DNA from: Escherichia phage KIT01
DNA length: 64,000 nucleotides
Reading direction: 5' to 3' (one strand)
Sequence record: AP019521.1
The notes below the pieces were generated by a model, which saw nothing but the letters and a program-made list of their open reading frames with translations, did no database searches and was not told the DNA's origin. Position 1 is the first letter of the stretch. Every line of letters begins with the position of its first letter. Both the position numbers and the translations under genes were made by a program. Positions 7,801 to 16,822 of this stretch are shown in pieces.

Positions 7801-9360
7801 ATGAAAAAGAATGCATTAGTTCAAAAATGGTCCGCTCTGCTGGAAAACGAAGCCCTTCCTGAAATCGTGGGTGCTTCTAAACAAGCTATCATCGCTAAAA
7901 TTTTCGAAAACCAGGAGCAAGACATCCTGACTGCTCCGGAATACCGTGATGAAAAAATCTCTGAAGCATTTGGTTCTTTCCTGACCGAAGCTGAAATCGG
8001 TGGTGACCACGGTTATGATGCTACCAATATCGCAGCTGGCCAGACTTCTGGTGCTGTAACTCAGATTGGGCCGGCAGTAATGGGTATGGTTCGTCGTGCT
8101 ATTCCTCATCTGATTGCTTTTGATATTTGTGGTGTTCAGCCTCTGAATAACCCTACCGGCCAGGTATTTGCCCTTCGTGCAGTTTATGGTAAAGACCCTA
8201 TCGCTGCTGGCGCTAAAGAAGCTTTCCATCCGATGTATTCTCCGGACTCTATGTTCTCTGGTCAGGGTGCTGCTGAATCTTTCGAAGCACTGGCTGCAAG
8301 CAAAGTTCTGGAAGTTGGTAAAATTTATTCTCACTTCTTCGAAGCTACCGGTGCTGCACACTTCCAGGCTGTTGAAGCCGTAACCGTTGATGCTGCTGCT
8401 ACTGATGCCGCTAAACTGGATGTTGCTGTTACCGCTTTGATTGAAGCTGGTAAGTTGGCTGAATTGGCTGAAGGTATGGCTACTTCTATCGCTGAACTTC
8501 AGGAAGGCTTTAACGGTTCTACCGATAACCCGTGGAACGAAATGGGCTTCCGCATCGACAAACAAGTTATCGAAGCTAAATCCCGTCAGCTGAAAGCAAG
8601 CTACTCTATCGAACTGGCACAGGACCTTCGTGCAGTACACGGTATGGATGCAGATGCTGAACTGTCCGGTATCCTTGCTACCGAAATTATGCTCGAAATC
8701 AACCGTGAAGTTATCGATTGGATTAACTACTCTGCACAGGTTGGTAAATCTGGCCAGACTCAGACCGTTGGTTCTAAAGCTGGTGTGTTTGACTTCCAGG
8801 ACCCGATTGATATCCGTGGTGCTCGTTGGGCCGGTGAGAGCTTTAAAGCCCTTCTGTTCCAGATTGATAAAGAAGCAGCCGAAATCGCTCGTCAGACCGG
8901 TCGTGGTGCTGGTAACTTCATCATCGCTTCCCGTAACGTAGTTAACGTACTGGCTGCAGTTGATACTTCTGTAAGTTATGCAGCTCAAGGTCTGGGTCAA
9001 GGTTTCAACGTTGACACAACCAAAGCAGTATTTGCCGGTGTTCTTGGTGGTAAATATCGCGTTTACATCGACCAGTATGCACGTTCCGATTACTTCACCA
9101 TCGGTTATAAAGGCGCTAACGAAATGGACGCAGGTATCTACTACGCTCCGTACGTTGCACTGACCCCGCTGCGTGGTTCCGATCCGAAGAACTTCCAACC
9201 GGTAATGGGCTTCAAAACTCGTTACGGTATCGGTATCAACCCGTTCGCTGACCCGTCTGCACAGGCTCCTACCAAACGTATTCAGAGCGGTATGCCTGAC
9301 ATCGTTAACAGCCTTGGTCTGAATGGTTACTTCCGTCGCGTATATGTTAAAGGTATCTAA
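7801..9360 (+). CDS. 23: Major capsid protein (gp23-like)
   Basis: 519-aa ORF with gp23-type codon usage; followed by a strong stem-loop; paralogous to the downstream gp24-like ORF. Confidence 0.95.
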   Translation: MKKNALVQKWSALLENEALPEIVGASKQAIIAKIFENQEQDILTAPEYRDEKISEAFGSFLTEAEIGGDHGYDATNIAAGQTSGAVTQIGPAVMGMVRRAIPHLIAFDICGVQPLNNPTGQVFALRAVYGKDPIAAGAKEAFHPMYSPDSMFSGQGAAESFEALAASKVLEVGKIYSHFFEATGAAHFQAVEAVTVDAAATDAAKLDVAVTALIEAGKLAELAEGMATSIAELQEGFNGSTDNPWNEMGFRIDKQVIEAKSRQLKASYSIELAQDLRAVHGMDADAELSGILATEIMLEINREVIDWINYSAQVGKSGQTQTVGSKAGVFDFQDPIDIRGARWAGESFKALLFQIDKEAAEIARQTGRGAGNFIIASRNVVNVLAAVDTSVSYAAQGLGQGFNVDTTKAVFAGVLGGKYRVYIDQYARSDYFTIGYKGANEMDAGIYYAPYVALTPLRGSDPKNFQPVMGFKTRYGIGINPFADPSAQAPTKRIQSGMPDIVNSLGLNGYFRRVYVKGI

Positions 9361-9376
9361 GATATAACCTTATTAT

Positions 9377-9394
9377 GGGAGACTTCGGTCTCCC
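9377..9394. terminator. Stem-loop gggagac-ttcg-gtctccc after gene 23 (between convergent genes)
   Basis: 7-bp GC-rich stem with UUCG tetraloop. Confidence 0.6.
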
Positions 9395-9409
9395 ATTCTT
9401 GTTTCTGTA

Positions 9410-9676
9410 CTATGCAATCTTAACTCGGCGGTTGATGATATCACGGAAGTCAATACGATTTTCTTGGATTTTCAGCCAGTTACCAGATTTGTCTTTGGTA
9501 TGGGTAGAGTATTCACCGTTCCACCAGAAGTCAGTTTCATAAGCCAGAGCTTCGTATTTCTTAACCAATGCATTAACTGCATTACCGTTAGGATTGGTAC
9601 CGAATTTTTCTACCAGAGCTTTGATGTCTTTGTCAAGGTTAGAAAGCGTGGTACGGATAAAGTTTAATTTGTTCAT
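9410..9676 (-). CDS. Hypothetical small protein between genes 23 and 24
   Basis: Minus-strand ORF; start taken at internal ATG preceded by GAGGAGA ribosome-binding site; early-type promoter upstream at about 9706-9735. Confidence 0.45.
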   Translation of the reverse strand: MNKLNFIRTTLSNLDKDIKALVEKFGTNPNGNAVNALVKKYEALAYETDFWWNGEYSTHTKDKSGNWLKIQENRIDFRDIINRRVKIA

Positions 9677-9705
9677 TTTTAATCTCCTCATGTTTTGATA
9701 GGTCT

Positions 9706-9735
9706 ATAGTAACACGACGCTTTTTGTGTGTAAAC
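9706..9735 (-). promoter_or_regulatory. Early-type sigma70-like promoter (GTTTAC -35, about 17-18 nt spacer, TACTAT -10)
   Basis: Reverse complement reads GTTTAC-N18-TACTAT; shares the extended block tatagacctatcaa with promoters near 53.1 and 53.9 kb. Confidence 0.5.
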
Positions 9736-9741
9736 CACTTT

Positions 9742-9749
9742 TATAAATA
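9742..9749 (+). promoter_or_regulatory. Late promoter box TATAAATA (gene 24)
   Basis: Exact TATAAATA about 30 nt upstream of the ATG. Confidence 0.5.
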
Positions 9750-9778
9750 AAATTATATTCTCAATAAGGAAAATAGCA

Positions 9779-11059
9779 ATGGCTAAAATTAACGACCTTT
9801 TAAAAGAGTCGACCATTACTTCGAGTTCTTCGATTGGTCGTCCAAATTTAGTAGCTTTAACCAGAGCTACGACCAAACTTGTTTATACCGACCTTGTAGC
9901 TCAGCAGCGTACTAACCAACCTTTGGCTGCTCTATATGGTATCAAATATCTTACAGAAAAAGACGAATTATCTTTCCAGACGGGTGCTACTTATTCCGGC
10001 GCAGTATCCGCTAAAGACCGTGCCACTATCCCAGTTTTCACTGCAGGCGCTGTTTATGCTAAAGATGATTTGTTCCAATTTGAAAACGTAGTTTATAAAG
10101 CTTTGGTAGCAAGCCCATTTGCCGGTGCTACTGGTGATGAATACGAACAACTTCAAGAAGCTATTGTTAAGTTGACTATCCGTATTATGTCCGAAGCCGC
10201 ACTGACTGAGCGTTTTGAAGGTCCTCAAGAAGTAGATATCTCTGAAGCCAGATTCATCGTTAATAAATGGAACGCCCCGGTTAAATCACGTAAGTTGAAG
10301 AGTACTGTTACCGTAGAACTGGCTCAAGACCTCGAAGCAAATGGTTTCGATGCCCCTAATTTCTTGGAAGACCTCCTGGCTACTGAAATGGCTGATGAAA
10401 TCAACAAAGATATTCTTCAGTCCCTGGTTACGGTTTCCAAGCGTTATAAAGTTGAAGGTTTGTGTGATGATGGCTTAATTGACCTGAGTTATGCTAACTC
10501 ACCGGAAGCTTCTCGCAAGCTTTATGAATTGGTGTGTGAAATGGTTTCTCATATCCAGCGCGCAACCTCTTATACGGCAACTTATGTAGTAGCGAGTACT
10601 CGTGTAGCTGCTGTTCTGGCTGGTTCCGGATGGTTGAGACATACCCCACAGAACGACAAATATCTTTCTGCAAGTGCATACGGATTCCTGGAAAATGGTT
10701 TGCCTCTGTATTGTGATACCAACACGCCGATTGATTATGTTACTGTAGGTGTTAAAGAGGAATTTGGTGGGAAGGAAGCGGTAGGTTCTCTGTTCTATGC
10801 ACCGTATACCGAAGGCCTTGATTTGGCTGACCCTGAACATGTGGGTACATTTAAAGTGGTCGTTGACCCTGAAAGCCTGCAACCATCTATTGCATTAATG
10901 GTTCGTTATGCACTGGCTGCCAACCCTTATACGGTTACTGCTGATGATAAACAAGCCCGTATTATTGATGCGACTAATATGGATTTGATGGCGGGACGTT
11001 CTGATATGTCCGTATTGCTTGGTGTGAAACTTCCTAAAGTTTTGACTGAATTAAACTAA
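9779..11059 (+). CDS. 24: Capsid vertex protein (gp24-like, gp23 paralog)
   Basis: 426-aa ORF after gene 23 with TATAAATA box upstream; size and position match T4 gp24. Confidence 0.9.
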   Translation: MAKINDLLKESTITSSSSIGRPNLVALTRATTKLVYTDLVAQQRTNQPLAALYGIKYLTEKDELSFQTGATYSGAVSAKDRATIPVFTAGAVYAKDDLFQFENVVYKALVASPFAGATGDEYEQLQEAIVKLTIRIMSEAALTERFEGPQEVDISEARFIVNKWNAPVKSRKLKSTVTVELAQDLEANGFDAPNFLEDLLATEMADEINKDILQSLVTVSKRYKVEGLCDDGLIDLSYANSPEASRKLYELVCEMVSHIQRATSYTATYVVASTRVAAVLAGSGWLRHTPQNDKYLSASAYGFLENGLPLYCDTNTPIDYVTVGVKEEFGGKEAVGSLFYAPYTEGLDLADPEHVGTFKVVVDPESLQPSIALMVRYALAANPYTVTADDKQARIIDATNMDLMAGRSDMSVLLGVKLPKVLTELN

Positions 11060-11066
11060 CAAAAAA

Positions 11067-11082
11067 GGGACCTTACGGTCCC
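11067..11082. terminator. Stem-loop gggacc-ttac-ggtccc between convergent gene 24 and rnlB
   Basis: 6-bp GC stem flanked by A-run and T-run (bidirectional). Confidence 0.6.
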
Positions 11083-11090
11083 TTTATCAT

Positions 11091-12098
11091 TTATTTGGAT
11101 ACTAATTCAATCCATACGGCTCGTAAGGTATCTTTTACGCACTCAACAAGCTGCTTTTTAACTTCAACAGGATTTTCTGCGTCGGTTAATTCTAATTCTT
11201 CACGGGCAGCTTCTTCAAGGATATCCTGGACTGTCAAGCCCATTACCTTTCCAAAATCCTTCGGCGATACTTCACCAATCTTACTGATGACATTGTTAAT
11301 GCGGTTAACAGTCACATAATCAGTGAATTGCCACATCAAATCCATATCATCTTGGGATAAAACCACTGCAACTTTAATAGGCTTATCAGACTTTTTCTTC
11401 TCGCTGAATTTAGAGTTCTTACATTTAATCGCTACACGATTTCCATTAGGAAGCCAGGTAGGAACATCAGGTTTCAGTACAAAGCCTTCAGCCGTGAATA
11501 CTTTACCTTCTACCTTAGGAATAAAGTCTGTCGAGTTTGCAATAGTTAAGCCAGCGTTATCCACTGCAAAATTATAATCGGGAACAACCGAATCAAAATC
11601 ATTAGGAAGTTTAATAAGGTCTTCAAAGCTACCAGTGGCCAGACATGGAGCTACCTTAAACTTATGAATAATACAGAAGGCTTCCATCAATGTATCGGTT
11701 AGAACAGATTCAGTACCGTCTTCCTTAGTAACTCGGATATCAAACACATAAAAGTCTTTATCACCGTAGTCCACATTCTTCTGAATACCTGTCCCAGCGA
11801 ATTCGCCATAAATCTGGTACGACTGGTAATTAATCGATTCAATTAGTTGTTGAACGGATTTAATAGAATCAGCATAGTTCTTAAGTACAATTTCATAACC
11901 ATAGAAATCTTCAGCAGGGAGAATTGGGCCAGTGCGCTTGGCGCATGTGACTGCGTCACGTTCTATGATTAAACTAAAGTTGGTTCCATGAATCTTCTCA
12001 CGTGCTACCCATTCACCGCCAGTCAAACCATTAGTACGGAGTTTTTCGATAAACTTATTGTTGTAGTGGTTTTCGAGACTGCTATATTTCTTGAACAT
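11091..12098 (-). CDS. rnlB: RNA ligase 2 (Rnl2)
   Basis: 335 aa; N-terminus [19 protein letters not shown]... and nucleotidyltransferase motif KIHGTN match remembered T4 Rnl2; same position as T4 rnlB. Confidence 0.9.
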
Positions 12099-12212
12099 AA
12101 ATCACCATAATAAATATAATTAAATAGAAGAGCTAGTAATCTTCTGTCACCAAGCCAAATGGTTTAACGGAAGGACCTAGACCCATTATAACACATCTAA
12201 ATTTAAAGCATA

Positions 12213-12434
12213 TTACTTTGAACTAGAACGCGCTTTGCGCCGAACCTTGTTGTTCAATCTTTTACGATAAACAACCTTTTCTTTCGATTTAAACTTGGCC
12301 TTGGCTTGTTCCACATCAACCCATGCTTTGGCCATGTCCTTAGCGGTACCACCTAATTTTTTAGCAATTTCTATAAAATTCAGTCCAGATTCGTGTAAAA
12401 AATGTACTTTAACCTTATCCATAACAATTCTCAT
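12213..12434 (-). CDS. Hypothetical small basic protein (possible helix-turn-helix; T4 24.x slot)
   Basis: 73-aa ORF with K/R-rich C-terminus; early-type promoter (GTTTAC-18-TAGTAT) immediately upstream on minus strand. Confidence 0.5.
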   Translation of the reverse strand: MRIVMDKVKVHFLHESGLNFIEIAKKLGGTAKDMAKAWVDVEQAKAKFKSKEKVVYRKRLNNKVRRKARSSSK

Positions 12435-12451
12435 ATTAAGTGCGTAAATCT

Positions 12452-12481
12452 ATACTACCATGAGAATTTTAACTTGTAAAC
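12452..12481 (-). promoter_or_regulatory. Early-type promoter for the small basic ORF at 12213-12434
   Basis: Reverse complement GTTTAC-N18-TAGTAT; overlaps the region just upstream of the collagen-like gene on the other strand. Confidence 0.45.
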
Positions 12482-12491
12482 AGGAAATTTT

Positions 12492-14054
12492 ATGGCACAA
12501 ACTACCGGTGAAAAAGAAGGCGTATTTTACGGTTATTCTCTTTATGATTTGAATAAAGAAAAACTAATAACCTTTGACGAATTACTTACAGGTATTAAAG
12601 GCGACGCTGGGGAAAATGGTGATATCGGTCCTCAAGGTCCTATTGGTTTACCTGGCCCGCAAGGTATCCAAGGTGAAGTTGGGCCTAAAGGTCCTAAAGG
12701 CGATATCGGTCTTCAGGGTATAGCAGGGCCTGCTGGTCCTCAAGGTCCACAAGGTGAACGAGGAATACAGGGCTTAACAGGACCACAAGGCCAAATAGGT
12801 ATTGCAGGGCCACAAGGCGTCAAAGGTGATACCGGTCCTCAAGGTCCTGTCGGCCCACAAGGTCCAGCAGGTGTACAAGGCGTACAAGGCGTCAAAGGTG
12901 ATACAGGTCCAGCAGGCCCTGCAGGTTTAACTTGGAAAGGAACTTGGGACTCAGCTACGGAGTATTCAATAAATGAAGCCGTAGGATATGGAGGTTCTTT
13001 GTATTTTGCTACAGAAACCGTGCCTGTCGGCGAAATCCCATCTTTAGCCTCCGACTATTGGGAAGTTTTGGCTACCGAAGGTCCAGAAGGTCCTCAAGGA
13101 CCACAAGGCATTCAGGGACCTATGGGTCCTCAGGGTATTCAAGGTCCTTTGGGTCCTGTAGGCCCGCAAGGTATCCAAGGACCAAGAGGCTTACAAGGAC
13201 CTGAAGGCGAAATAGGACCTCGTGGTTTGCAGGGGTTAAAAGGTGAAACAGGTGCTCAAGGACCGCAGGGCATTCAAGGGCTTAAAGGCGAGCCAGGGGC
13301 CCAGGGACCTGATGGTATTGGTTTAACTGGGCCTCAAGGACCAATTGGCCTTACAGGTCCAGCGGGCCCTCAGGGTATAAGAGGAGCCATAGGACCTAAA
13401 GGTGATACAGGTTTAACTGGTGCCCAAGGCGAGCAAGGTGCCCCAGGTGTTAAAGGTGATACCGGTCCTCAAGGATTACAAGGGGTTAAGGGAGATAAAG
13501 GGGATAAAGGAGATACTGGTGCCCAAGGATTACAAGGGGTTAAAGGAGATAAAGGAGACAAAGGAGATACCGCGCCTCATAATAAAGTATACTATTTAGG
13601 ACAAACCCCATGGTTCCACAACTCGTATGCTAAACATCAACTTCCAGGAACCAATGATTGGCGGATTACTGTAACAGGTACAACCAACTTTGAATCCTAT
13701 TCATCAGGTAACGTTAGAATAGGATTTTTTAATAATACTTCTGCATCCAGATCATGCACGTTTACATTGATTTCTTATGATGCTAACGGCTCACAGAAAA
13801 ATACAAAATACAATACTGTGCATAATGTTATGGTTCAAAGTTCTTATTATAAATTCTGGGGTGATAATGCCGATTCATTTATTATAGGCGGCACTTCTAA
13901 TATATGTGAAGGGTTTTTTACTGATAATGCCACCAATAAAACCTATCATATAAAATTTATAGGATTGGTCAAAGCCACAGCTACGGTACCAGGCAAATAT
14001 GTTCTTGAAGTTGAAGAGATTATTTCTGGTGGCGAACCTGTAAAATATTATTAA
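12492..14054 (+). CDS. Collagen-like repeat protein: two Gly-X-Y blocks split by a W/Y-rich module, plus a C-terminal globular domain
   Basis: 520-aa ORF; two long uninterrupted Gly-X-Y tracts (about aa 37-146 and 198-364); intervening [27 protein letters not shown]...DYWEVLA segment; AGGAAA ribosome-binding site before the ATG. Confidence 0.8.
12600..13570 (+). repeat. Gly-X-Y triplet (collagen-type) coding repeats, two tracts split by a non-repeat module
   Basis: 9-nt periodicity of GGN-NNN-NNN codons visible directly in the sequence within the 12492-14054 ORF. Confidence 0.85.
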
Positions 14055-14064
14055 TGGAGGTTGA

Positions 14065-14928
14065 ATGGAACCGGTACAAGCTATATTAGAGCCTGGCGTA
14101 ATAGATGTAGAATATGGTAATACTTATTCAGCAACAGTAACTCTAACTCCTATAGAAAATATCCCAGATGGTTCCGTGATAAGATATGATTGGGTTGTTA
14201 ATAACAAGTTTGTTGGTACGGGTGAAGCTACTCGTACCACCCAACCATCTCAGACCGGAAATTATGTGTTATCATGTAGAGTATTCATTACCCCGCCTAA
14301 TGAAAATACTGTAATGATAACAACTAATAAATCATATGGGTATGTATATAAAAATTCTGATACAAGTCCAGTAGATGCAGAAATATTATACGATAATAAA
14401 ATATACCAAATAGGGAGCAAAGTTAGATTATTAGCTACGGCTAATAACCCCGATACTAACTATGTTAAAGGTATTATATGGAAGGATGCTGACGGGAATA
14501 TAATAGGTATAGGGCGGGAATATATCCATACAATGCAATCTGAATATGATATAGTTCGTGCTAAAGTCACAATGGATTCGCCTACTAGAGATGAATTCAG
14601 TAAGAACTTTACCATACATTTATATGCTATAAATGTTCAAGAAGGAACTTGTATAAGATACATTCATCCTTTAGACCATCGGGATGCTGGATTTATCTGG
14701 TGCGGATGGTGGGTTATGGATGAAGTTCAACGAGCAGTAAAACTTGGATTGGATTGGAAAAATCCTGAAGGAACTGAGTTAAATTATAAATGTGATTTAG
14801 AAACACTGTCATTATTGCTCAAAACATATCCTGAAGCTGAAGTTCAGGAATCAAGGCACGGGCATATAATAACCAGACCGCAAATTGAGTCCGGTGAAAT
14901 ATATGAAAAGCCATATGAAGTAAAATAA
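14065..14928 (+). CDS. Hoc-like paralog: Ig-like N-terminal region plus Hoc-type capsid-binding C-terminal domain
   Basis: 287 aa; C-terminal HPLDHRDAGFIWCGWWVMDEVQ...YPEAEVQESRHGHII aligns with canonical Hoc C-terminus (HPLPVRNSAYIWCGWWVMDEIQ...YPEVDVQESRNGYIV) encoded convergently downstream; GGAGG ribosome-binding site. Confidence 0.75.
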   Translation: MEPVQAILEPGVIDVEYGNTYSATVTLTPIENIPDGSVIRYDWVVNNKFVGTGEATRTTQPSQTGNYVLSCRVFITPPNENTVMITTNKSYGYVYKNSDTSPVDAEILYDNKIYQIGSKVRLLATANNPDTNYVKGIIWKDADGNIIGIGREYIHTMQSEYDIVRAKVTMDSPTRDEFSKNFTIHLYAINVQEGTCIRYIHPLDHRDAGFIWCGWWVMDEVQRAVKLGLDWKNPEGTELNYKCDLETLSLLLKTYPEAEVQESRHGHIITRPQIESGEIYEKPYEVK

Positions 14929-14933
14929 AAAAG

Positions 14934-14949
14934 GGACCTTACGGTCCCT
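14934..14949. terminator. Stem-loop gggacc-ttac-ggtccc between Hoc-like gene and hoc (same sequence as at 11067)
   Basis: aaaaagggaccttacggtcccttttattt: identical hairpin flanked by A/T runs, shared by convergent genes. Confidence 0.6.
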
Positions 14950-14954
14950 TTTAT

Positions 14955-16085
14955 TTATGGATAGAAATAAATTATTCCTGCCTCCAATGAGGTTTTGTGT
15001 ACGATATATCCATTACGAGATTCTTGTACATCAACCTCTGGATAGTCGGTAATCATTTTTTGAAGTGTATATCGGTGCAAATAATACGGGCTATCCGGGT
15101 CATCGGTTTTCCAGTCTTTGCCTTCAAGAGTCATTTTCTGGATTTCATCCATAACCCACCATCCACACCAGATATAAGCTGAATTGCGAACTGGCAATGG
15201 ATGTACATAAGGTAATTCACCATCTGGAACTGGTGCGACTTTAGCCGTGACTGTCACATTACCGGTTTTGGTAACGGTCGCAGGGTTATAATCAGTCGCC
15301 GAAACCACAACAGAAACTTCAATAACCTGTGAACCTTCAGTGTTTGTATCGATTGCTAGAGTATCTGTGGTACCAGCAATACCAATGCCATCTTTCTTCC
15401 AAGAATAAGCAAAAGTGGCACCACTAGGCGCACCTGCTACGGTAGCTTTAAAAGAAGCCGGAGTTCCTTCAGGTACATTAATAGAGGCTGGCGTTAAATT
15501 AACAGAAACCCCAGACATTGTTTTCTTAACAAAAGAAACCGTTATGCCTTTAGCAGCAGTTGCTGAACCGTATTCCGGAGAGGTAACAGTAACTTCACAA
15601 TTCAAGGTATAATTTGCTTCGGCTGCTTCAGTTAGTGTAATAGTTTTAGAGGTTTGGCCTGAAATTACGGTGGTATTTCGTTTCCAAACATAATTAATTG
15701 TTGCATCAGCAGGAGCACCGGTTACATTAGCCGTAACAACTTGGGATTGGCCGACTTCTTTAGAAACGGAAGTAGGGTCCAAAGCCAAAGAGATATCCAT
15801 AGTTTTATTAGATACGGTAACTTCAAAGGTGTCTTCGGCTGTCTCAAGAGGGCCCGCATCGCCAGGGTCAGAAGTTACTACTACTTTTATAACTTTCTTA
15901 CCCGCAGGAGCAGCACCCGTATATCTCAAAACATTAGTGGTTTCTGGGTTAGCAGCTCCATCAACGGTCCATACATATGCAATGGTTCCCCCTGTTACAA
16001 CTGGGTCGGTTGCGGTAGCAGTGTAATTAGCGCTTTCGCCTATTTTCATAGACGCTGCGCCGGCTATACTTACAGTAAAGGCCAT
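14955..16085 (-). CDS. hoc: Highly immunogenic outer capsid protein Hoc
   Basis: 376 aa, same length as T4 Hoc; near-identical C-terminal capsid-binding region (ELPYVHPLP...IWCGWWVMDEIQKMT...DWKTDDPDS) and Ig-like repeats. Confidence 0.9.
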   Translation of the reverse strand: MAFTVSIAGAASMKIGESANYTATATDPVVTGGTIAYVWTVDGAANPETTNVLRYTGAAPAGKKVIKVVVTSDPGDAGPLETAEDTFEVTVSNKTMDISLALDPTSVSKEVGQSQVVTANVTGAPADATINYVWKRNTTVISGQTSKTITLTEAAEANYTLNCEVTVTSPEYGSATAAKGITVSFVKKTMSGVSVNLTPASINVPEGTPASFKATVAGAPSGATFAYSWKKDGIGIAGTTDTLAIDTNTEGSQVIEVSVVVSATDYNPATVTKTGNVTVTAKVAPVPDGELPYVHPLPVRNSAYIWCGWWVMDEIQKMTLEGKDWKTDDPDSPYYLHRYTLQKMITDYPEVDVQESRNGYIVHKTSLEAGIIYFYP

Positions 16086-16094
16086 AGTTTACCC

Positions 16095-16772
16095 TTATTT
16101 TAAAGTGACAAAAGATGAATTACGCGTTTCACGTACTAATACTGAGCCATTACGATTGATGTAATAAATCAGACTGAATAATGTTTGGTGGGCTGAAGGA
16201 TGTTGGAAATCTTTAGGACGTTCTTTCCAATCAGGGGTTTCAGAAATCCATTGATAAATCCACCAAGGAACAGTACAGTAACCTGGGTTTTTACCAATAA
16301 GCAAAAGATTGGGACTAAAGTTTTCAGGGAGTTCAAATTTAGGTTTTTCTGATTCTTTAACCAAGGTTATAGCTTGATTGAATTTCTCTTCGACAAACGG
16401 GACATCCTCTTCAATAATCTCTACCTTAGGAAGTTCGGCTACCTCAACGACTTCAACAACTGCCTCAGGAGCATCGAACAACAGGGTGGCTTCTTCTTTA
16501 GCCGGTTCAGCACCATCAACAAATTCGTTAGCACCATTGAGTTCGTCGGCAGCATCAATCAAATCAGAAATAGACAAACCTTCGGTTTCCGGAAGTGGTT
16601 CGTCAGCCAAGGCTTTAAGACCTTCAGTGATATTGATAATCAAATTATCAACCGAACGGGTTTTCTTAAGTTTTAAACCGAACTGTTCACCGTATTCGAT
16701 TAACTTAGCTTTAGCTTCTTTTTTATCTTCGAGTGCACGAAGCTCTTCAATATATTGATGGTCCATAATCAT
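16095..16772 (-). CDS. inh: Inhibitor of prohead protease (Inh-like)
   Basis: 225-aa ORF adjacent to hoc in the T4 inh position; acidic middle region. Confidence 0.7.
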   Translation of the reverse strand: MIMDHQYIEELRALEDKKEAKAKLIEYGEQFGLKLKKTRSVDNLIINITEGLKALADEPLPETEGLSISDLIDAADELNGANEFVDGAEPAKEEATLLFDAPEAVVEVVEVAELPKVEIIEEDVPFVEEKFNQAITLVKESEKPKFELPENFSPNLLLIGKNPGYCTVPWWIYQWISETPDWKERPKDFQHPSAHQTLFSLIYYINRNGSVLVRETRNSSFVTLK

Positions 16773-16794: not shown

Positions 16795-16822
16795 TAACTA
16801 TATTTATAACTGAGAATTACTT

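What the first reader, a model, noticed from the sequence alone, without database searches (positions are those of the whole stretch)
12492..14054. Collagen-like repeat protein encoded in the capsid-decoration neighbourhood
The 520-aa ORF has two long uninterrupted Gly-X-Y tracts (roughly 37 and 55 triplets) that should form a collagen-type triple helix, so probably a trimer. Between them is a W/Y-rich module ([48 protein letters not shown]) whose W-x-G-x-W...Y...Y-x-A...W pattern resembles small carbohydrate-binding modules (CBM5/12-like) seen in some phage fibre proteins. After the second tract comes a 155-aa Cys-containing, beta-rich C-terminal domain that could be a trimerising head, as in BclA/C1q-like proteins. 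The gene lies where, from memory of the T4 map, the 24.x ORFs abut hoc and no collagen-like gene exists; it is on the opposite strand to its upstream neighbours and has no TATAAATA box directly upstream. Hypothesis: an auxiliary fibre on the capsid (given the adjacent Hoc-like genes) or tail that binds glycans.
Basis: partly seen in the sequence, partly recalled or inferred. Interest (0 to 1): 0.82.

Follow-up and report, generated by a model that had tools for sequence, protein, structure and literature searches.

The report
Collagen-like fibre paired with Hoc paralog
A T4-like phage encodes a long collagen-like fibre protein with a sugar-binding-type module, always next to a short copy of the head-decoration protein Hoc; it is probably an accessory sticky fibre on the virion, possibly on the head, but nobody has shown where it sits.

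Summary
The ORF is real: 12492-14054 (+), 520 aa, Pfam Collagen E=4e-43. It has 38 Gly-X-Y triplets, then a 49-aa insert, then 27+27 triplets with one short break.

The insert is CBM5/12-like. It is the only Pfam family hit: below threshold here, above it in the JS10 orthologue.

The 160-aa C-terminal tip models as a beta-sandwich. It is not C1q/BclA-like and has no close solved relative. Its only structural relatives are tips of other phage collagen-like fibres. By sequence it is very rare.

The gene is not new. It belongs to PHROG 5073, deposited as "tail fiber-like" or "collagen-like" in JS10, VR7 and Aeromonas phage 65. A homologue, W70_129, is a virion protein by mass spectrometry.

What I found no report of is the pairing. 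In each of about 16 T4-like phages looked at (gene layout read in 14), the fibre gene accompanies a short Hoc paralog. In all but IME08 it lies directly upstream on the same strand. The fibre's N-terminal anchor type (N1 or N2) matches the paralog type (A or B). The pair survives in four genomic contexts. Here a Gaprivervirus-type cassette sits in a Dhakavirus-type backbone.

Siphovirus homologues replace the anchor with two DUF1737 capsid-binding domains and lie in the head gene module.

Best reading (confidence about 0.5): a head fibre tethered through the Hoc paralog. A tail or neck location is not excluded.

The parts
12435..12491 (.). Divergent intergenic region upstream of the fibre gene. 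It has no T4 late-promoter box. It holds a minus-strand early-type promoter-like site (GTTTACA-17-TAGTAT with TG, 12480-12452) facing the 24.3-like gene and rnlB, and only a weak plus-strand sigma-70-like site (TTCTCA-17-TATACT, 12428-12456). AGGA lies 8 nt before the ATG.
12492..14054 (+). Collagen-like fibre protein (CLP), 520 aa, PHROG 5073.
12492..12590 (+). N-terminal anchor, type N1 (aa 1-33, [29 protein letters not shown]). It is shared with VR7/VR25/VR26 and with the rV5-like W70_129, A5-4_226 and P0001. It aligns with the N2 anchor (FGHDGRGxFxG...F.D[IL]L) of JS10, CGG4-1 and Aeromonas phage 65.
12591..12932 (+). Collagen tract 1, aa 34-147, 38 Gly-X-Y triplets (about 33 nm if triple-helical at 0.286 nm per residue).
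   Evidence: Pfam Collagen
12933..13079 (+). CBM5/12-like module, aa 148-196, inserted in the stalk.
13080..13571 (+). Collagen tract 2, aa 197-360: 27+27 triplets with a break at aa 278-279 (GIG-LT-GPQ). It contains a 54-bp tandem duplication at 13451-13579 (about 46 nm in total).
13572..14051 (+). C-terminal tip domain, aa 361-520. Predicted beta-sandwich of about 10 strands, 2 Cys. No Pfam, PHROG or PDB sequence match. Only two real relatives among 1.84 billion representative proteins.
14056..14060 (+). GGAGG ribosome-binding site for the Hoc paralog. It starts 2 nt after the CLP stop codon and ends 4 nt before the ATG at 14065, an arrangement that would allow coupled translation.
14065..14928 (+). 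Short Hoc paralog (Hoc2, type A), 287 aa: two Ig-like-sized N-terminal domains plus the Hoc capsid-binding C-terminal domain (WCGWWVMDE...QESRHG). 93% identical to VR26_194. Exact match to KIT01_185.
14929..14952 (.). Hairpin between the convergent Hoc2 and hoc genes, called terminator-like by the scan on the minus strand only. The same stem sequence recurs after gp24 at 11064-11085, where the scan called it on both strands.
14955..16085 (-). Canonical hoc, 376 aa, Dhakavirus-type (94% to IME08). Context only. It follows inh (16095-16772), which has a minus-strand TATAAATA box just upstream at 16801-16808.

Best explanation
The ORF encodes the shaft-and-tip subunit of an accessory virion fibre.

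Proposed anatomy (inferred except where marked):
- Three chains form a collagen triple helix about 80 nm long.
- The helix is interrupted by a node of three CBM5/12-like modules.
- It ends in a variable beta-sandwich tip.
- The short N-terminal motif (N1) is the attachment end.

Proposed attachment (inferred): the fibre is made together with the downstream short Hoc paralog. The paralog's C-terminal domain is the Hoc capsid-binding domain, which seats Hoc at the centre of gp23 hexamers. I propose the paralog is the adaptor that holds the fibre on the head. The two genes would then be a portable 'head-fibre kit'.

Proposed function (inferred): weak, multivalent, reversible adhesion to polysaccharide-rich surfaces such as the host envelope or mucus glycans. 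This would raise the encounter rate and would not trigger injection.

Shown here: the domain anatomy; the CBM5/12 relationship; the conserved gene pairing with matching types; transfer of the cassette as a unit; virion presence of a homologue.

Inferred: the trimer, the physical CLP-Hoc2 contact, the head location and the ligand.
For: 1. Conserved pairing. In each of about 16 T4-like phages looked at, the fibre gene accompanies a short Hoc paralog.
- Gene layout read: window, VR26, VR25, VR5, VR7, JS10, CGG4-1, Cronus, Aeromonas phage 65, dhaeg, TH15, Phynn, AhFM11, FBB1.
- Consistent by hit coordinates only: ESCO10 and Kosakonia phage 305.
- In these the fibre gene lies directly upstream of the paralog on the same strand, with a gap of 1-127 nt or an overlap.
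- In the window a GGAGG starts 2 nt after the CLP stop codon.

2. Matching types.
- Type A Hoc2 occurs only in VR5, VR7, VR25, VR26, ESCO10 and Kosakonia 305. These are exactly the T4-like phages with an N1 fibre.
- All type B paralogs checked follow an N2 fibre.
- The two paralog types share only the capsid-binding domain.

3. The pair is kept in four different genomic contexts: 24.3|pair|hoc; gp24|pair|rnlB; next to tk; next to nadV.

4. Transfer as a unit. The window's rnlB, hoc and inh are 93-99% identical to Dhakavirus. Its Hoc2 (93%) and CLP aa 1-326 (76%) are Gaprivervirus VR26-type, and only 27-28% identical to Dhakavirus Hoc2. Docking specificity therefore travels inside the cassette, while gp23 is conserved.

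5. Homologues in siphovirus head modules. Sd1 gp45 and P0002 share the stalk, and P0002 has the same tip type (32%). Both carry two DUF1737 repeats at the N-terminus (24.3 and 34.7 bits, both above the cutoff of 24). P0002 lies between a cement-protein gene and the major capsid gene; Sd1 gp45 lies between an SGNH-hydrolase-domain gene and the major capsid gene. A cryo-EM preprint shows DUF1737 as a capsid-hexamer-centre binding domain (bioRxiv 10.64898/2026.04.10.717836).

6. W70_129 has the same N1-collagen-CBM-collagen-tip architecture. It is a virion protein with 728 spectra (PMC11370258).

7. Relatives TH15 and Phynn have exact TATAAATA boxes upstream of the fibre gene. The four VR phages examined (VR5, VR7, VR25, VR26) have AATAAATA.

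8. Precedents: the Hoc capsid-binding domain is used to display other modules (PMC10385173), and SPP1 gp12 is a collagen-like trimeric capsid decoration (PMC7602432).

9. The window keeps ORFs of gp34, gp35 and gp36 size in the T4 tail-fibre position (identified by size and map order only), so this fibre does not replace the tail fibres.
Against: - No direct evidence places any member on a T4-like head.
- Adjacent genes co-transfer by linkage alone.
- Hoc binds as a monomer and the fibre would be a trimer, so the stoichiometry is unexplained.
- N1-anchored homologues exist in rV5-like phages. No Hoc-like gene was found within about 5 kb of them (tblastn). There they lie between the major head gene and the neck/adaptor genes.
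- IME08 has the two genes apart.
- The window, JS10, dhaeg and CGG4-1 lack any late-promoter box upstream, so late expression is unproven here.
- The first Ig-like domain of Hoc2 is only modestly better conserved than the second.
Confidence: 0.5

Rival explanations
1. It is an auxiliary tail or neck fibre, as the database labels say ('tail fiber protein'). The N-terminal motif would dock on a baseplate, collar or whisker component. The fibre would act as an extra receptor-binding or adsorption-enhancing fibre. The adjacent Hoc paralog would be an unrelated passenger in a hypervariable region.
For: - PHROG 5073 and most other PHROG hits are labelled tail fibre.
- N1-type homologues in rV5-like phages sit next to a 1263-aa collagen protein with a fibritin C-terminal (foldon) domain, and next to neck/adaptor genes. 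Those phages show bundles of thin tail fibres in EM (PMC11370258; PMC7344957).
- Prophage collagen-like proteins of E. coli O157 are trimeric side-tail-fibre candidates (PMC3368898).
Against: - The 'tail fibre' labels are inferred from collagen repeats, not from localisation.
- This reading does not explain why anchor type and Hoc-paralog type match in every T4-like phage examined.
- It does not explain why the pair stays together in four genomic contexts, often with overlapping stop and start codons.
- It does not explain how a Gaprivervirus-type anchor would fit a Dhakavirus-type tail.
- Siphovirus homologues sit in head modules with a capsid-binding N-terminus.
Confidence: 0.3
2. It is a head fibre that binds the capsid directly through its own N-terminal motif, for example at quasi-threefold sites that suit a trimer. 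Hoc2 would be a separate, co-regulated decoration occupying hexamer centres. The two would be functionally related but not physically linked.
For: - Trimer symmetry fits threefold sites better than a monomeric Hoc adaptor (inference).
- SPP1 gp12 and phi29 gp8.5 are trimeric head fibres that bind the capsid directly (PMC7602432).
- The head-module homologues support a head location without needing an adaptor.
Against: - A 33-aa motif shared with rV5-like phages, whose capsid proteins differ, is unlikely to recognise gp23 directly.
- The strict matching of anchor type and Hoc2 type is then unexplained, except by linkage.
Confidence: 0.1
3. In this phage it is not a virion component. It would be an early-expressed or poorly expressed accessory gene, or a decaying one, carried in a plastic region.
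For: - There is no late promoter within 150 nt.
- The only plus-strand promoter-like sites are sigma-70-type: 12428-12456 (9 of 12) and 12091-12120 (10 of 12).
- IME08's orthologue is frameshifted in the deposited sequence.
Against: - The 520-codon ORF is intact, with a good ribosome-binding site.
- The N-terminal 326 aa are 76% identical to VR26.
- The homologue W70_129 is an abundant virion protein.
- Relatives have canonical late boxes.
Confidence: 0.07

Closest known systems
Orthologous 'tail fiber-like' or 'collagen-like' genes of T4-like phages: JS10 EpJS10_0176, VR7 gp196, VR26_193, CGG4-1_166, Aeromonas phage 65 65p147
   Same: Same locus logic: directly upstream of a short Hoc paralog. 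Homologous N-terminal motif, collagen stalk and CBM5/12-like insert. VR26_193 is 76% identical over aa 1-326.
   Different: The tip differs. VR26, JS10 and A5-4 share one tip type, and CGG4-1, Cronus and dhaeg another. The window's tip type was not seen in any T4-like record. None of these proteins has been characterised experimentally, as far as the searched literature shows.
W70_129 of Escherichia phage W70 (Septuagintavirus, Vequintavirinae), PHROG 5073
   Same: Same architecture: N1 anchor, collagen, CBM5/12-like module, collagen, beta tip. Shown to be a virion structural protein by ESI-MS/MS with 728 spectra.
   Different: It belongs to an rV5-like myovirus, with no Hoc-like gene found nearby. 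It is encoded between the major head gene and the neck genes. Its tip is a different type. Its position on the virion is unknown.
DUF1737-anchored collagen proteins of T1-like siphoviruses (Shigella phage Sd1 gp45; metagenomic P0002), with phi24B gp84 as the structural reference for DUF1737
   Same: Shared collagen stalk and homologous tip. P0002's tip is 32% identical to the window's; Sd1's is 21%. Sd1 also has the CBM5/12 insert. Both are encoded immediately upstream of the major capsid gene.
   Different: The N-terminus is two DUF1737 repeats rather than the N1 motif. No Hoc paralog is involved. DUF1737 is shown as a hexamer-centre capsid binder only for phi24B gp84, in a preprint.
SPP1 gp12, the collagen-like capsid auxiliary protein
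   Same: A collagen-like trimer displayed on capsid hexamers, with a proposed adhesion role (PMC7602432).
   Different: As I recall it, gp12 is a very small protein with only a few Gly-X-Y repeats, and it binds the capsid directly. It has no CBM insert and no globular tip. Sequence relatedness was not tested here.
T4 Hoc and second Hoc-like proteins (Muldoon, PG7)
   Same: The downstream partner has the Hoc capsid-binding domain. The idea that this domain is reused to display other functions on the head is published (PMC10385173).
   Different: The collagen protein itself has no Hoc domain. Display through a separate, non-covalently bound fibre has not been described. Muldoon-type second Hoc genes occur without a fibre gene (locus L015).
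EPclA/EPclB prophage collagen-like proteins of E. coli O157:H7
   Same: Phage-borne collagen-like proteins shown biophysically to be trimeric triple helices with a C-terminal trimerisation domain (PMC3368898).
   Different: Their architecture differs (PfN, coiled coil, collagen, PfC). They come from lambdoid prophages, as side-tail-fibre candidates. They have no CBM5/12 insert and no Hoc partner.
BclA / C1q-type collagen proteins with a TNF-like trimeric head
   Same: The overall layout: a collagen stalk followed by a globular all-beta C-terminal domain.
   Different: The modelled tip does not match C1q, TNF or BclA folds.

Membership tests
Collagen triple-helix repeat proteins (PF01391) | Long runs of Gly-X-Y with Gly at every third position, recognised by the family HMM above its threshold. 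| tested here: met
   92 triplets in three runs. PF01391 E=4.1e-43, 145 bits against a cutoff of 27.2, in 4 stretches.
Collagen triple-helix repeat proteins (PF01391) | Assembly into a homotrimeric triple helix. | not testable with these tools
   Only monomer prediction is available. Trimerisation is inferred from the repeat and from EPclA biophysics.
CBM5/12 carbohydrate-binding module (PF02839) | HMM match above the gathering threshold. | tested here: inconclusive
   Window copy 14.8 bits, E=0.03, against a cutoff of 26.2. Aligned orthologous copies: JS10 27.7 bits (above cutoff), Sd1 22.2 bits. No other Pfam family hits. A profile of nine copies against the PDB finds only CBM5/12 domains, best 1ED7 at E=0.0018.
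CBM5/12 carbohydrate-binding module (PF02839) | Binding to chitin, cellulose or another glycan through surface aromatic residues. | not testable with these tools
BclA / C1q-like collagen proteins | C-terminal TNF/C1q-type jelly-roll head. | tested here: not met
PHROG 5073 ('tail fiber protein') | Match to the family profile along its length. | tested here: met
   E=7.1e-118; best stretch aa 1-276 on profile positions 59-340. The N1 motif alone matches positions 59-91. The window's tip does not match the profile's C-terminal part (386-517), whereas the VR26 and Sd1 tips do.
PHROG 5073 ('tail fiber protein') | Location on the tail, as the family label implies. | not testable with these tools
   The label is an annotation. 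The only experimental datum found is that W70_129 is in virions, position unknown.
Hoc-like head decoration proteins | C-terminal capsid-binding domain (W-x-G-W-W ... Q-E-S-R-N-G). | tested here: not met
   The collagen protein has no such domain. The downstream ORF 14065-14928 does: phrog_1149 E=9.8e-55, motif WCGWWVMDE...QESRHG.
DUF1737-anchored capsid decoration proteins | N-terminal DUF1737 (PF08410) domain. | tested here: not met
   No Pfam hit for window aa 1-46. The homologues Sd1 gp45 and P0002 have two repeats each, above threshold.
SPP1 gp12-like collagen-like capsid decoration | Sequence homology to gp12 and binding at hexamer centres. | not tested
The resemblance is functional only.

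The most novel reading that the evidence does not exclude
The short Hoc paralog is a dedicated capsid adaptor. Its conserved C-terminal domain plugs into gp23 hexamer centres. Its distal Ig-like domain captures the N-terminal motif of a roughly 80-nm collagen fibre studded with CBM5/12 modules. Together they would form a self-contained two-gene 'head-fibre kit'. It moves between T4-like genera as a unit and swaps its tip with fibres of siphoviruses and rV5-like phages. Many T4-like phages would then carry long adhesive hairs on their heads that have gone unnoticed.
Probability: 0.4. Interest if true: 0.7.

Novelty: new variant of a known kind. Interest (0 to 1): 0.52.

Why it matters
Hoc is the model for phage adherence to mucus and a widely used display platform. 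Suppose a Hoc paralog tethers a long collagen fibre to the head. Capsid decoration in T4-like phages would then be a two-component, exchangeable adhesion system, not just a single Ig-like protein.

That would bear on three things:
- how these phages find hosts in the gut or in sewage;
- why therapeutic Dhakavirus and Gaprivervirus phages differ in behaviour;
- whether there is a natural docking pair for capsid engineering.

Even on the conservative reading, the result is useful. It corrects 'tail fiber protein' labels that rest only on collagen repeats. It defines the family's modular anatomy: anchor, stalk, CBM node and variable tip.

Tried and rejected
- Word-indexed searches of the tip domain, alone and as a 5-sequence profile, in the 5.8-billion-protein database returned nothing. 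The exhaustive HMMER scan gave six hits, of which only two (P0001, P0002) are real. The other four are repeat-inflated matches to unrelated repetitive proteins and were discarded.
- The single-sequence AF2 model of the tip was useless (pLDDT 35). The 3-sequence alignment gave a usable model.
- The full-length protein search was swamped by generic collagen proteins. It showed only that collagen plus CBM5/12 architectures are common in metagenomes and bacterial genomes.
- I looked for a Hoc2-like partner beside the rV5-like and siphovirus homologues by tblastn and found none. The 211-aa gene upstream of W70_129 has no Pfam hit and no obvious resemblance to Hoc2.
- The phiTE cryo-EM paper does not mention whiskers, a collar or collagen, and does not resolve the homologue.
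- Spectral counts in the W70 proteome do not track copy number. By my arithmetic from the table, portal and sheath give similar counts per kDa. I therefore did not use them to argue head against tail.
- MotA-box or middle-promoter readings of the upstream region were considered by eye and dropped as unconvincing.
Full report
**1. The observation**

The window is a T4-like late region. The gene order is:
- gp23, 7801-9360
- gp24, 9779-11059
- rnlB, 11091-12098 (minus strand)
- a 24.3-like DUF2774 gene, 12213-12434 (minus strand)
- the ORF in question, 12492-14054 (plus strand)
- a 287-aa ORF, 14065-14928 (plus strand)
- hoc, 14955-16085 (minus strand)
- inh
- uvsW

The 520-aa product has Gly-X-Y runs at three places:
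- aa 34-147, 38 triplets
- aa 197-277, 27 triplets
- aa 280-360, 27 triplets

The last two are separated by a short break (GIG-LT-GPQ). The second tract is therefore interrupted once, contrary to the finding. Pfam Collagen scores E=4e-43. The quoted W/Y-rich insert is at aa 148-196. The non-collagen C-terminus is 160 aa with two Cys. There is no TATAAATA upstream, even with one mismatch within 150 nt.

**2. The parts**

*The insert.* PF02839 (CBM_5_12) is the only Pfam family that matches it.
- The window copy is below threshold: 14.8 bits against a cutoff of 26.2.
- The aligned copy in the JS10 orthologue is above it: 27.7 bits.
- A profile of nine copies finds only CBM5/12 chitin-binding domains in the PDB. 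The best is 1ED7 (chitinase A1) at E=0.0018.

Ligand binding is untested.

*The tip (aa 361-520).*
- It has no Pfam, PHROG or PDB sequence match.
- An exhaustive HMMER scan of 1.84 billion representative proteins found only two real relatives: P0001 (40% identical) and P0002 (32%).
- An AF2 model from the 3-sequence alignment (pLDDT 72, pTM 0.73) is a beta-sandwich of about ten strands.
- Foldseek against the PDB finds nothing at E<=0.001.
- Against predicted viral structures, the best matches are the C-terminal tips of other phage collagen-like or tail-fibre-like proteins. These include the JS10 orthologue and Aeromonas phage 65.2.

The tip is therefore a divergent member of a phage-specific family of fibre-tip domains. 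It is not a BclA/C1q head.

*The N-terminus (aa 1-33, 'N1').*
- It is identical in the VR7 and VR26 orthologues apart from residue 2.
- It is recognisably shared with the rV5-like proteins A5-4_226, W70_129 and P0001.
- It aligns with a second type, 'N2' (FGHDGRGxFxG...), found in the JS10, CGG4-1, Cronus and Aeromonas phage 65 proteins.

**3. It is not a new gene**

It belongs to PHROG 5073 (E=7e-118). Orthologues sit at the same place in several genera:
- Dhakavirus: JS10 'tail fiber-like protein'
- Gaprivervirus: VR7 gp196 'collagen triple helix repeat', and VR26_193, which is 76% identical over aa 1-326
- Gelderlandvirus: CGG4-1

In the open literature I could search, none is characterised.

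One homologue with the same architecture is W70_129 of a Septuagintavirus. It was detected in purified virions with 728 spectra and a visible gel band (PMC11370258). The family is therefore structural in at least one phage.

**4. The neighbour**

The ORF at 14065-14928 is a short Hoc paralog, Hoc2. It matches phrog_1149 at E=1e-54 and has the Hoc capsid-binding motif WCGWWVMDE...QESRHG. A GGAGG starts 2 nt after the CLP stop codon and ends 4 nt before the Hoc2 ATG. A hairpin follows Hoc2.

Three patterns emerged.

*(a) Adjacency.*
- I read the gene layout in 14 T4-like phages: the window, VR26, VR25, VR5, VR7, JS10, CGG4-1, Cronus, Aeromonas phage 65, dhaeg, TH15, Phynn, AhFM11 and FBB1.
- ESCO10 and Kosakonia phage 305 are consistent by hit coordinates only.
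- In all of them the fibre gene lies immediately upstream of a short Hoc paralog on the same strand. The gap is 1-127 nt, or the stop and start codons overlap.
- IME08 is the one exception. Its two genes are apart and its anchor is frameshifted.

*(b) Matching types.*
- Hoc2 comes in two types that share only the capsid-binding domain.
- Type A occurs only in VR5, VR7, VR25, VR26, ESCO10 and Kosakonia 305. These are exactly the T4-like phages with an N1 fibre.
- Every type B paralog checked follows an N2 fibre.

*(c) The pair behaves as a unit.*
- It is kept in four different genomic contexts.
- In the window, rnlB, hoc and inh are 93-99% identical to Dhakavirus. Hoc2 (93%) and CLP aa 1-326 (76%) are of the Gaprivervirus VR26 type.
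- Only the tip is swapped independently.
- Phynn's fibre has the anchor and the tip but no collagen at all, so stalk length is free to vary.

**5. Relatives outside T4-like phages**

- P0002 has the same tip type as the window. Shigella phage Sd1 gp45 has the CBM insert and a related tip.
- Both are encoded immediately upstream of the major capsid gene of T1-like siphoviruses. P0002 follows a cement-protein gene. Sd1 gp45 follows an SGNH-hydrolase-domain gene.
- Both start with two DUF1737 repeats, above the Pfam threshold.
- A 2026 cryo-EM preprint shows DUF1737 of phi24B gp84 bound as a hexamer at capsid hexon centres.
- Two repeats on each of three chains would give six domains. This symmetry match is my inference only.
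- The same stalk-and-tip module thus carries a capsid-binding N-terminus in siphoviruses. That supports reading the N-terminus as the attachment end and the capsid as a plausible site.
- In rV5-like phages the homologue lies between the major head gene and the adaptor or neck genes. It is next to a 1263-aa protein with collagen repeats and a fibritin-foldon domain. No Hoc-like gene was found nearby.

**6. Mechanism**

Best reading, confidence about 0.5: a trimeric fibre about 80 nm long. The length is 278 residues at 0.286 nm each, from standard collagen geometry.
- It would have a node of CBM5/12 modules and a variable tip.
- It would be co-produced with Hoc2 and held on gp23 hexamers through it.
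- It would serve weak multivalent adhesion to glycans.

Shown: the anatomy, the pairing, the matching types, the unit transfer, and a homologue in virions. Inferred: the trimer, the CLP-Hoc2 contact, the head location and the ligand.

Main rival, confidence about 0.3: a tail- or neck-attached auxiliary fibre, with Hoc2 as a linked passenger.

Weak points of the best reading:
- A monomeric Hoc would have to hold a trimeric fibre.
- N1 homologues exist without Hoc2 in rV5-like phages.
- The window has no late promoter, although TH15 and Phynn have exact TATAAATA boxes and the four VR phages examined have AATAAATA.

**7. Verdict**

The protein is a new member of a known family of phage collagen-like fibres, with a rare tip. 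I found no description of the conserved, type-matched, mobile pairing with a Hoc paralog. It makes a head-fibre hypothesis directly testable. The gene is widespread and already deposited, and the localisation is unproven.

Noticed in passing
window 11064-11085 and 14929-14952: The same G+C-rich hairpin (AAAGGGACC-ttac/gtaa-GGTCCCTTT) occurs after gp24 and between Hoc2 and hoc. It brackets the rnlB / 24.3-like / CLP / Hoc2 block. The scan called the first copy terminator-like on both strands and the second on the minus strand only. It might also be a recombination point: IME08, Cronus and FBB1 have the fibre gene right after gp24.
   Followed up: partly
window 12452-12480 (minus strand): A T4 early-type promoter-like site (GTTTACA, 17 nt, TG-n-TAGTAT) faces the 24.3-like gene and rnlB. 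The sequence TTAACTTGTAAACAGG is conserved in JS10, dhaeg, VR phages and TH15, and overlaps the 5' leader of the fibre gene.
   Followed up: partly
L002 3852-4000 (VR26), L004 2864-3000 (VR7); compare window 12470-12494: VR-type phages have a 20-codon mini-ORF (MPDILERKDLLYNRHYLNKY) and an AATAAATA box between the conserved promoter region and the fibre gene. In the window and JS10 this segment is absent, and the fibre ATG sits where the mini-ORF ATG is.
   Followed up: partly
window 12091-12120 (plus strand): The best sigma-70-like site near the gene (TTGAAC-18-TATAAT, 10 of 12) lies between rnlB and the 24.3-like gene. It would read antisense through the 24.3-like gene into the fibre gene. 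Whether it drives the cassette is unknown.
   Followed up: no
window 13451-13579: A 54-bp tandem duplication (2.4 copies, 84% match) encodes [18 protein letters not shown] at the end of the stalk. It suggests recent length change by slippage or unequal recombination.
   Followed up: no
window 14065-14928: The Hoc2 protein is identical to KIT01_185 (BBI57533.1) of Escherichia phage KIT01, so the window probably comes from that phage. The exact 520-aa fibre sequence is not in the 15-billion-protein collection, and KIT01 did not appear in the phage DNA search.
   Followed up: partly
L001 1587-2995 (IME08): IME08's 'tail fiber-like' CDS is annotated from an internal non-ATG start. An N2 anchor (MVDETLFGHDGRGNFSG...) lies upstream and ends in a stop codon. 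This is either a frameshifted pseudogene or a sequencing error. Here the fibre gene is also separated from Hoc2, between gp24b and rnlB.
   Followed up: partly
window 9361-9778: Only one gp24 copy is present, whereas IME08, JS10, VR26 and CGG4-1 have two in tandem. The gp23-gp24 gap holds a 93-aa minus-strand ORF (9410-9691) and a TATAAATA box at 9742.
   Followed up: no
L005 472-4263 (A5-4_224) and L043 184-3984 (W70_131): The large rV5-like 'tail fiber' encoded shortly downstream of the major head gene combines collagen repeats with a T4 fibritin C-terminal (foldon) domain. It gives the highest spectral count in the W70 virion proteome (2032). Its position on the virion seems unresolved.
   Followed up: no
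L047 3283-4002 (Pantoea phage Phynn): PHYNN_38 is a fibre homologue with an N2 anchor and a tip but no collagen or CBM. The Hoc paralog next to it is annotated as 'capsid vertex protein', which looks like a mis-annotation.
   Followed up: partly
L006 2159-3451 (Shigella phage Sd1 gp46): An SGNH-hydrolase-domain protein sits just upstream of the collagen protein in the siphovirus head module. This parallels the esterases displayed on capsids through Hoc-type (PG7) or DUF1737 (phi24B) binding domains.
   Followed up: no
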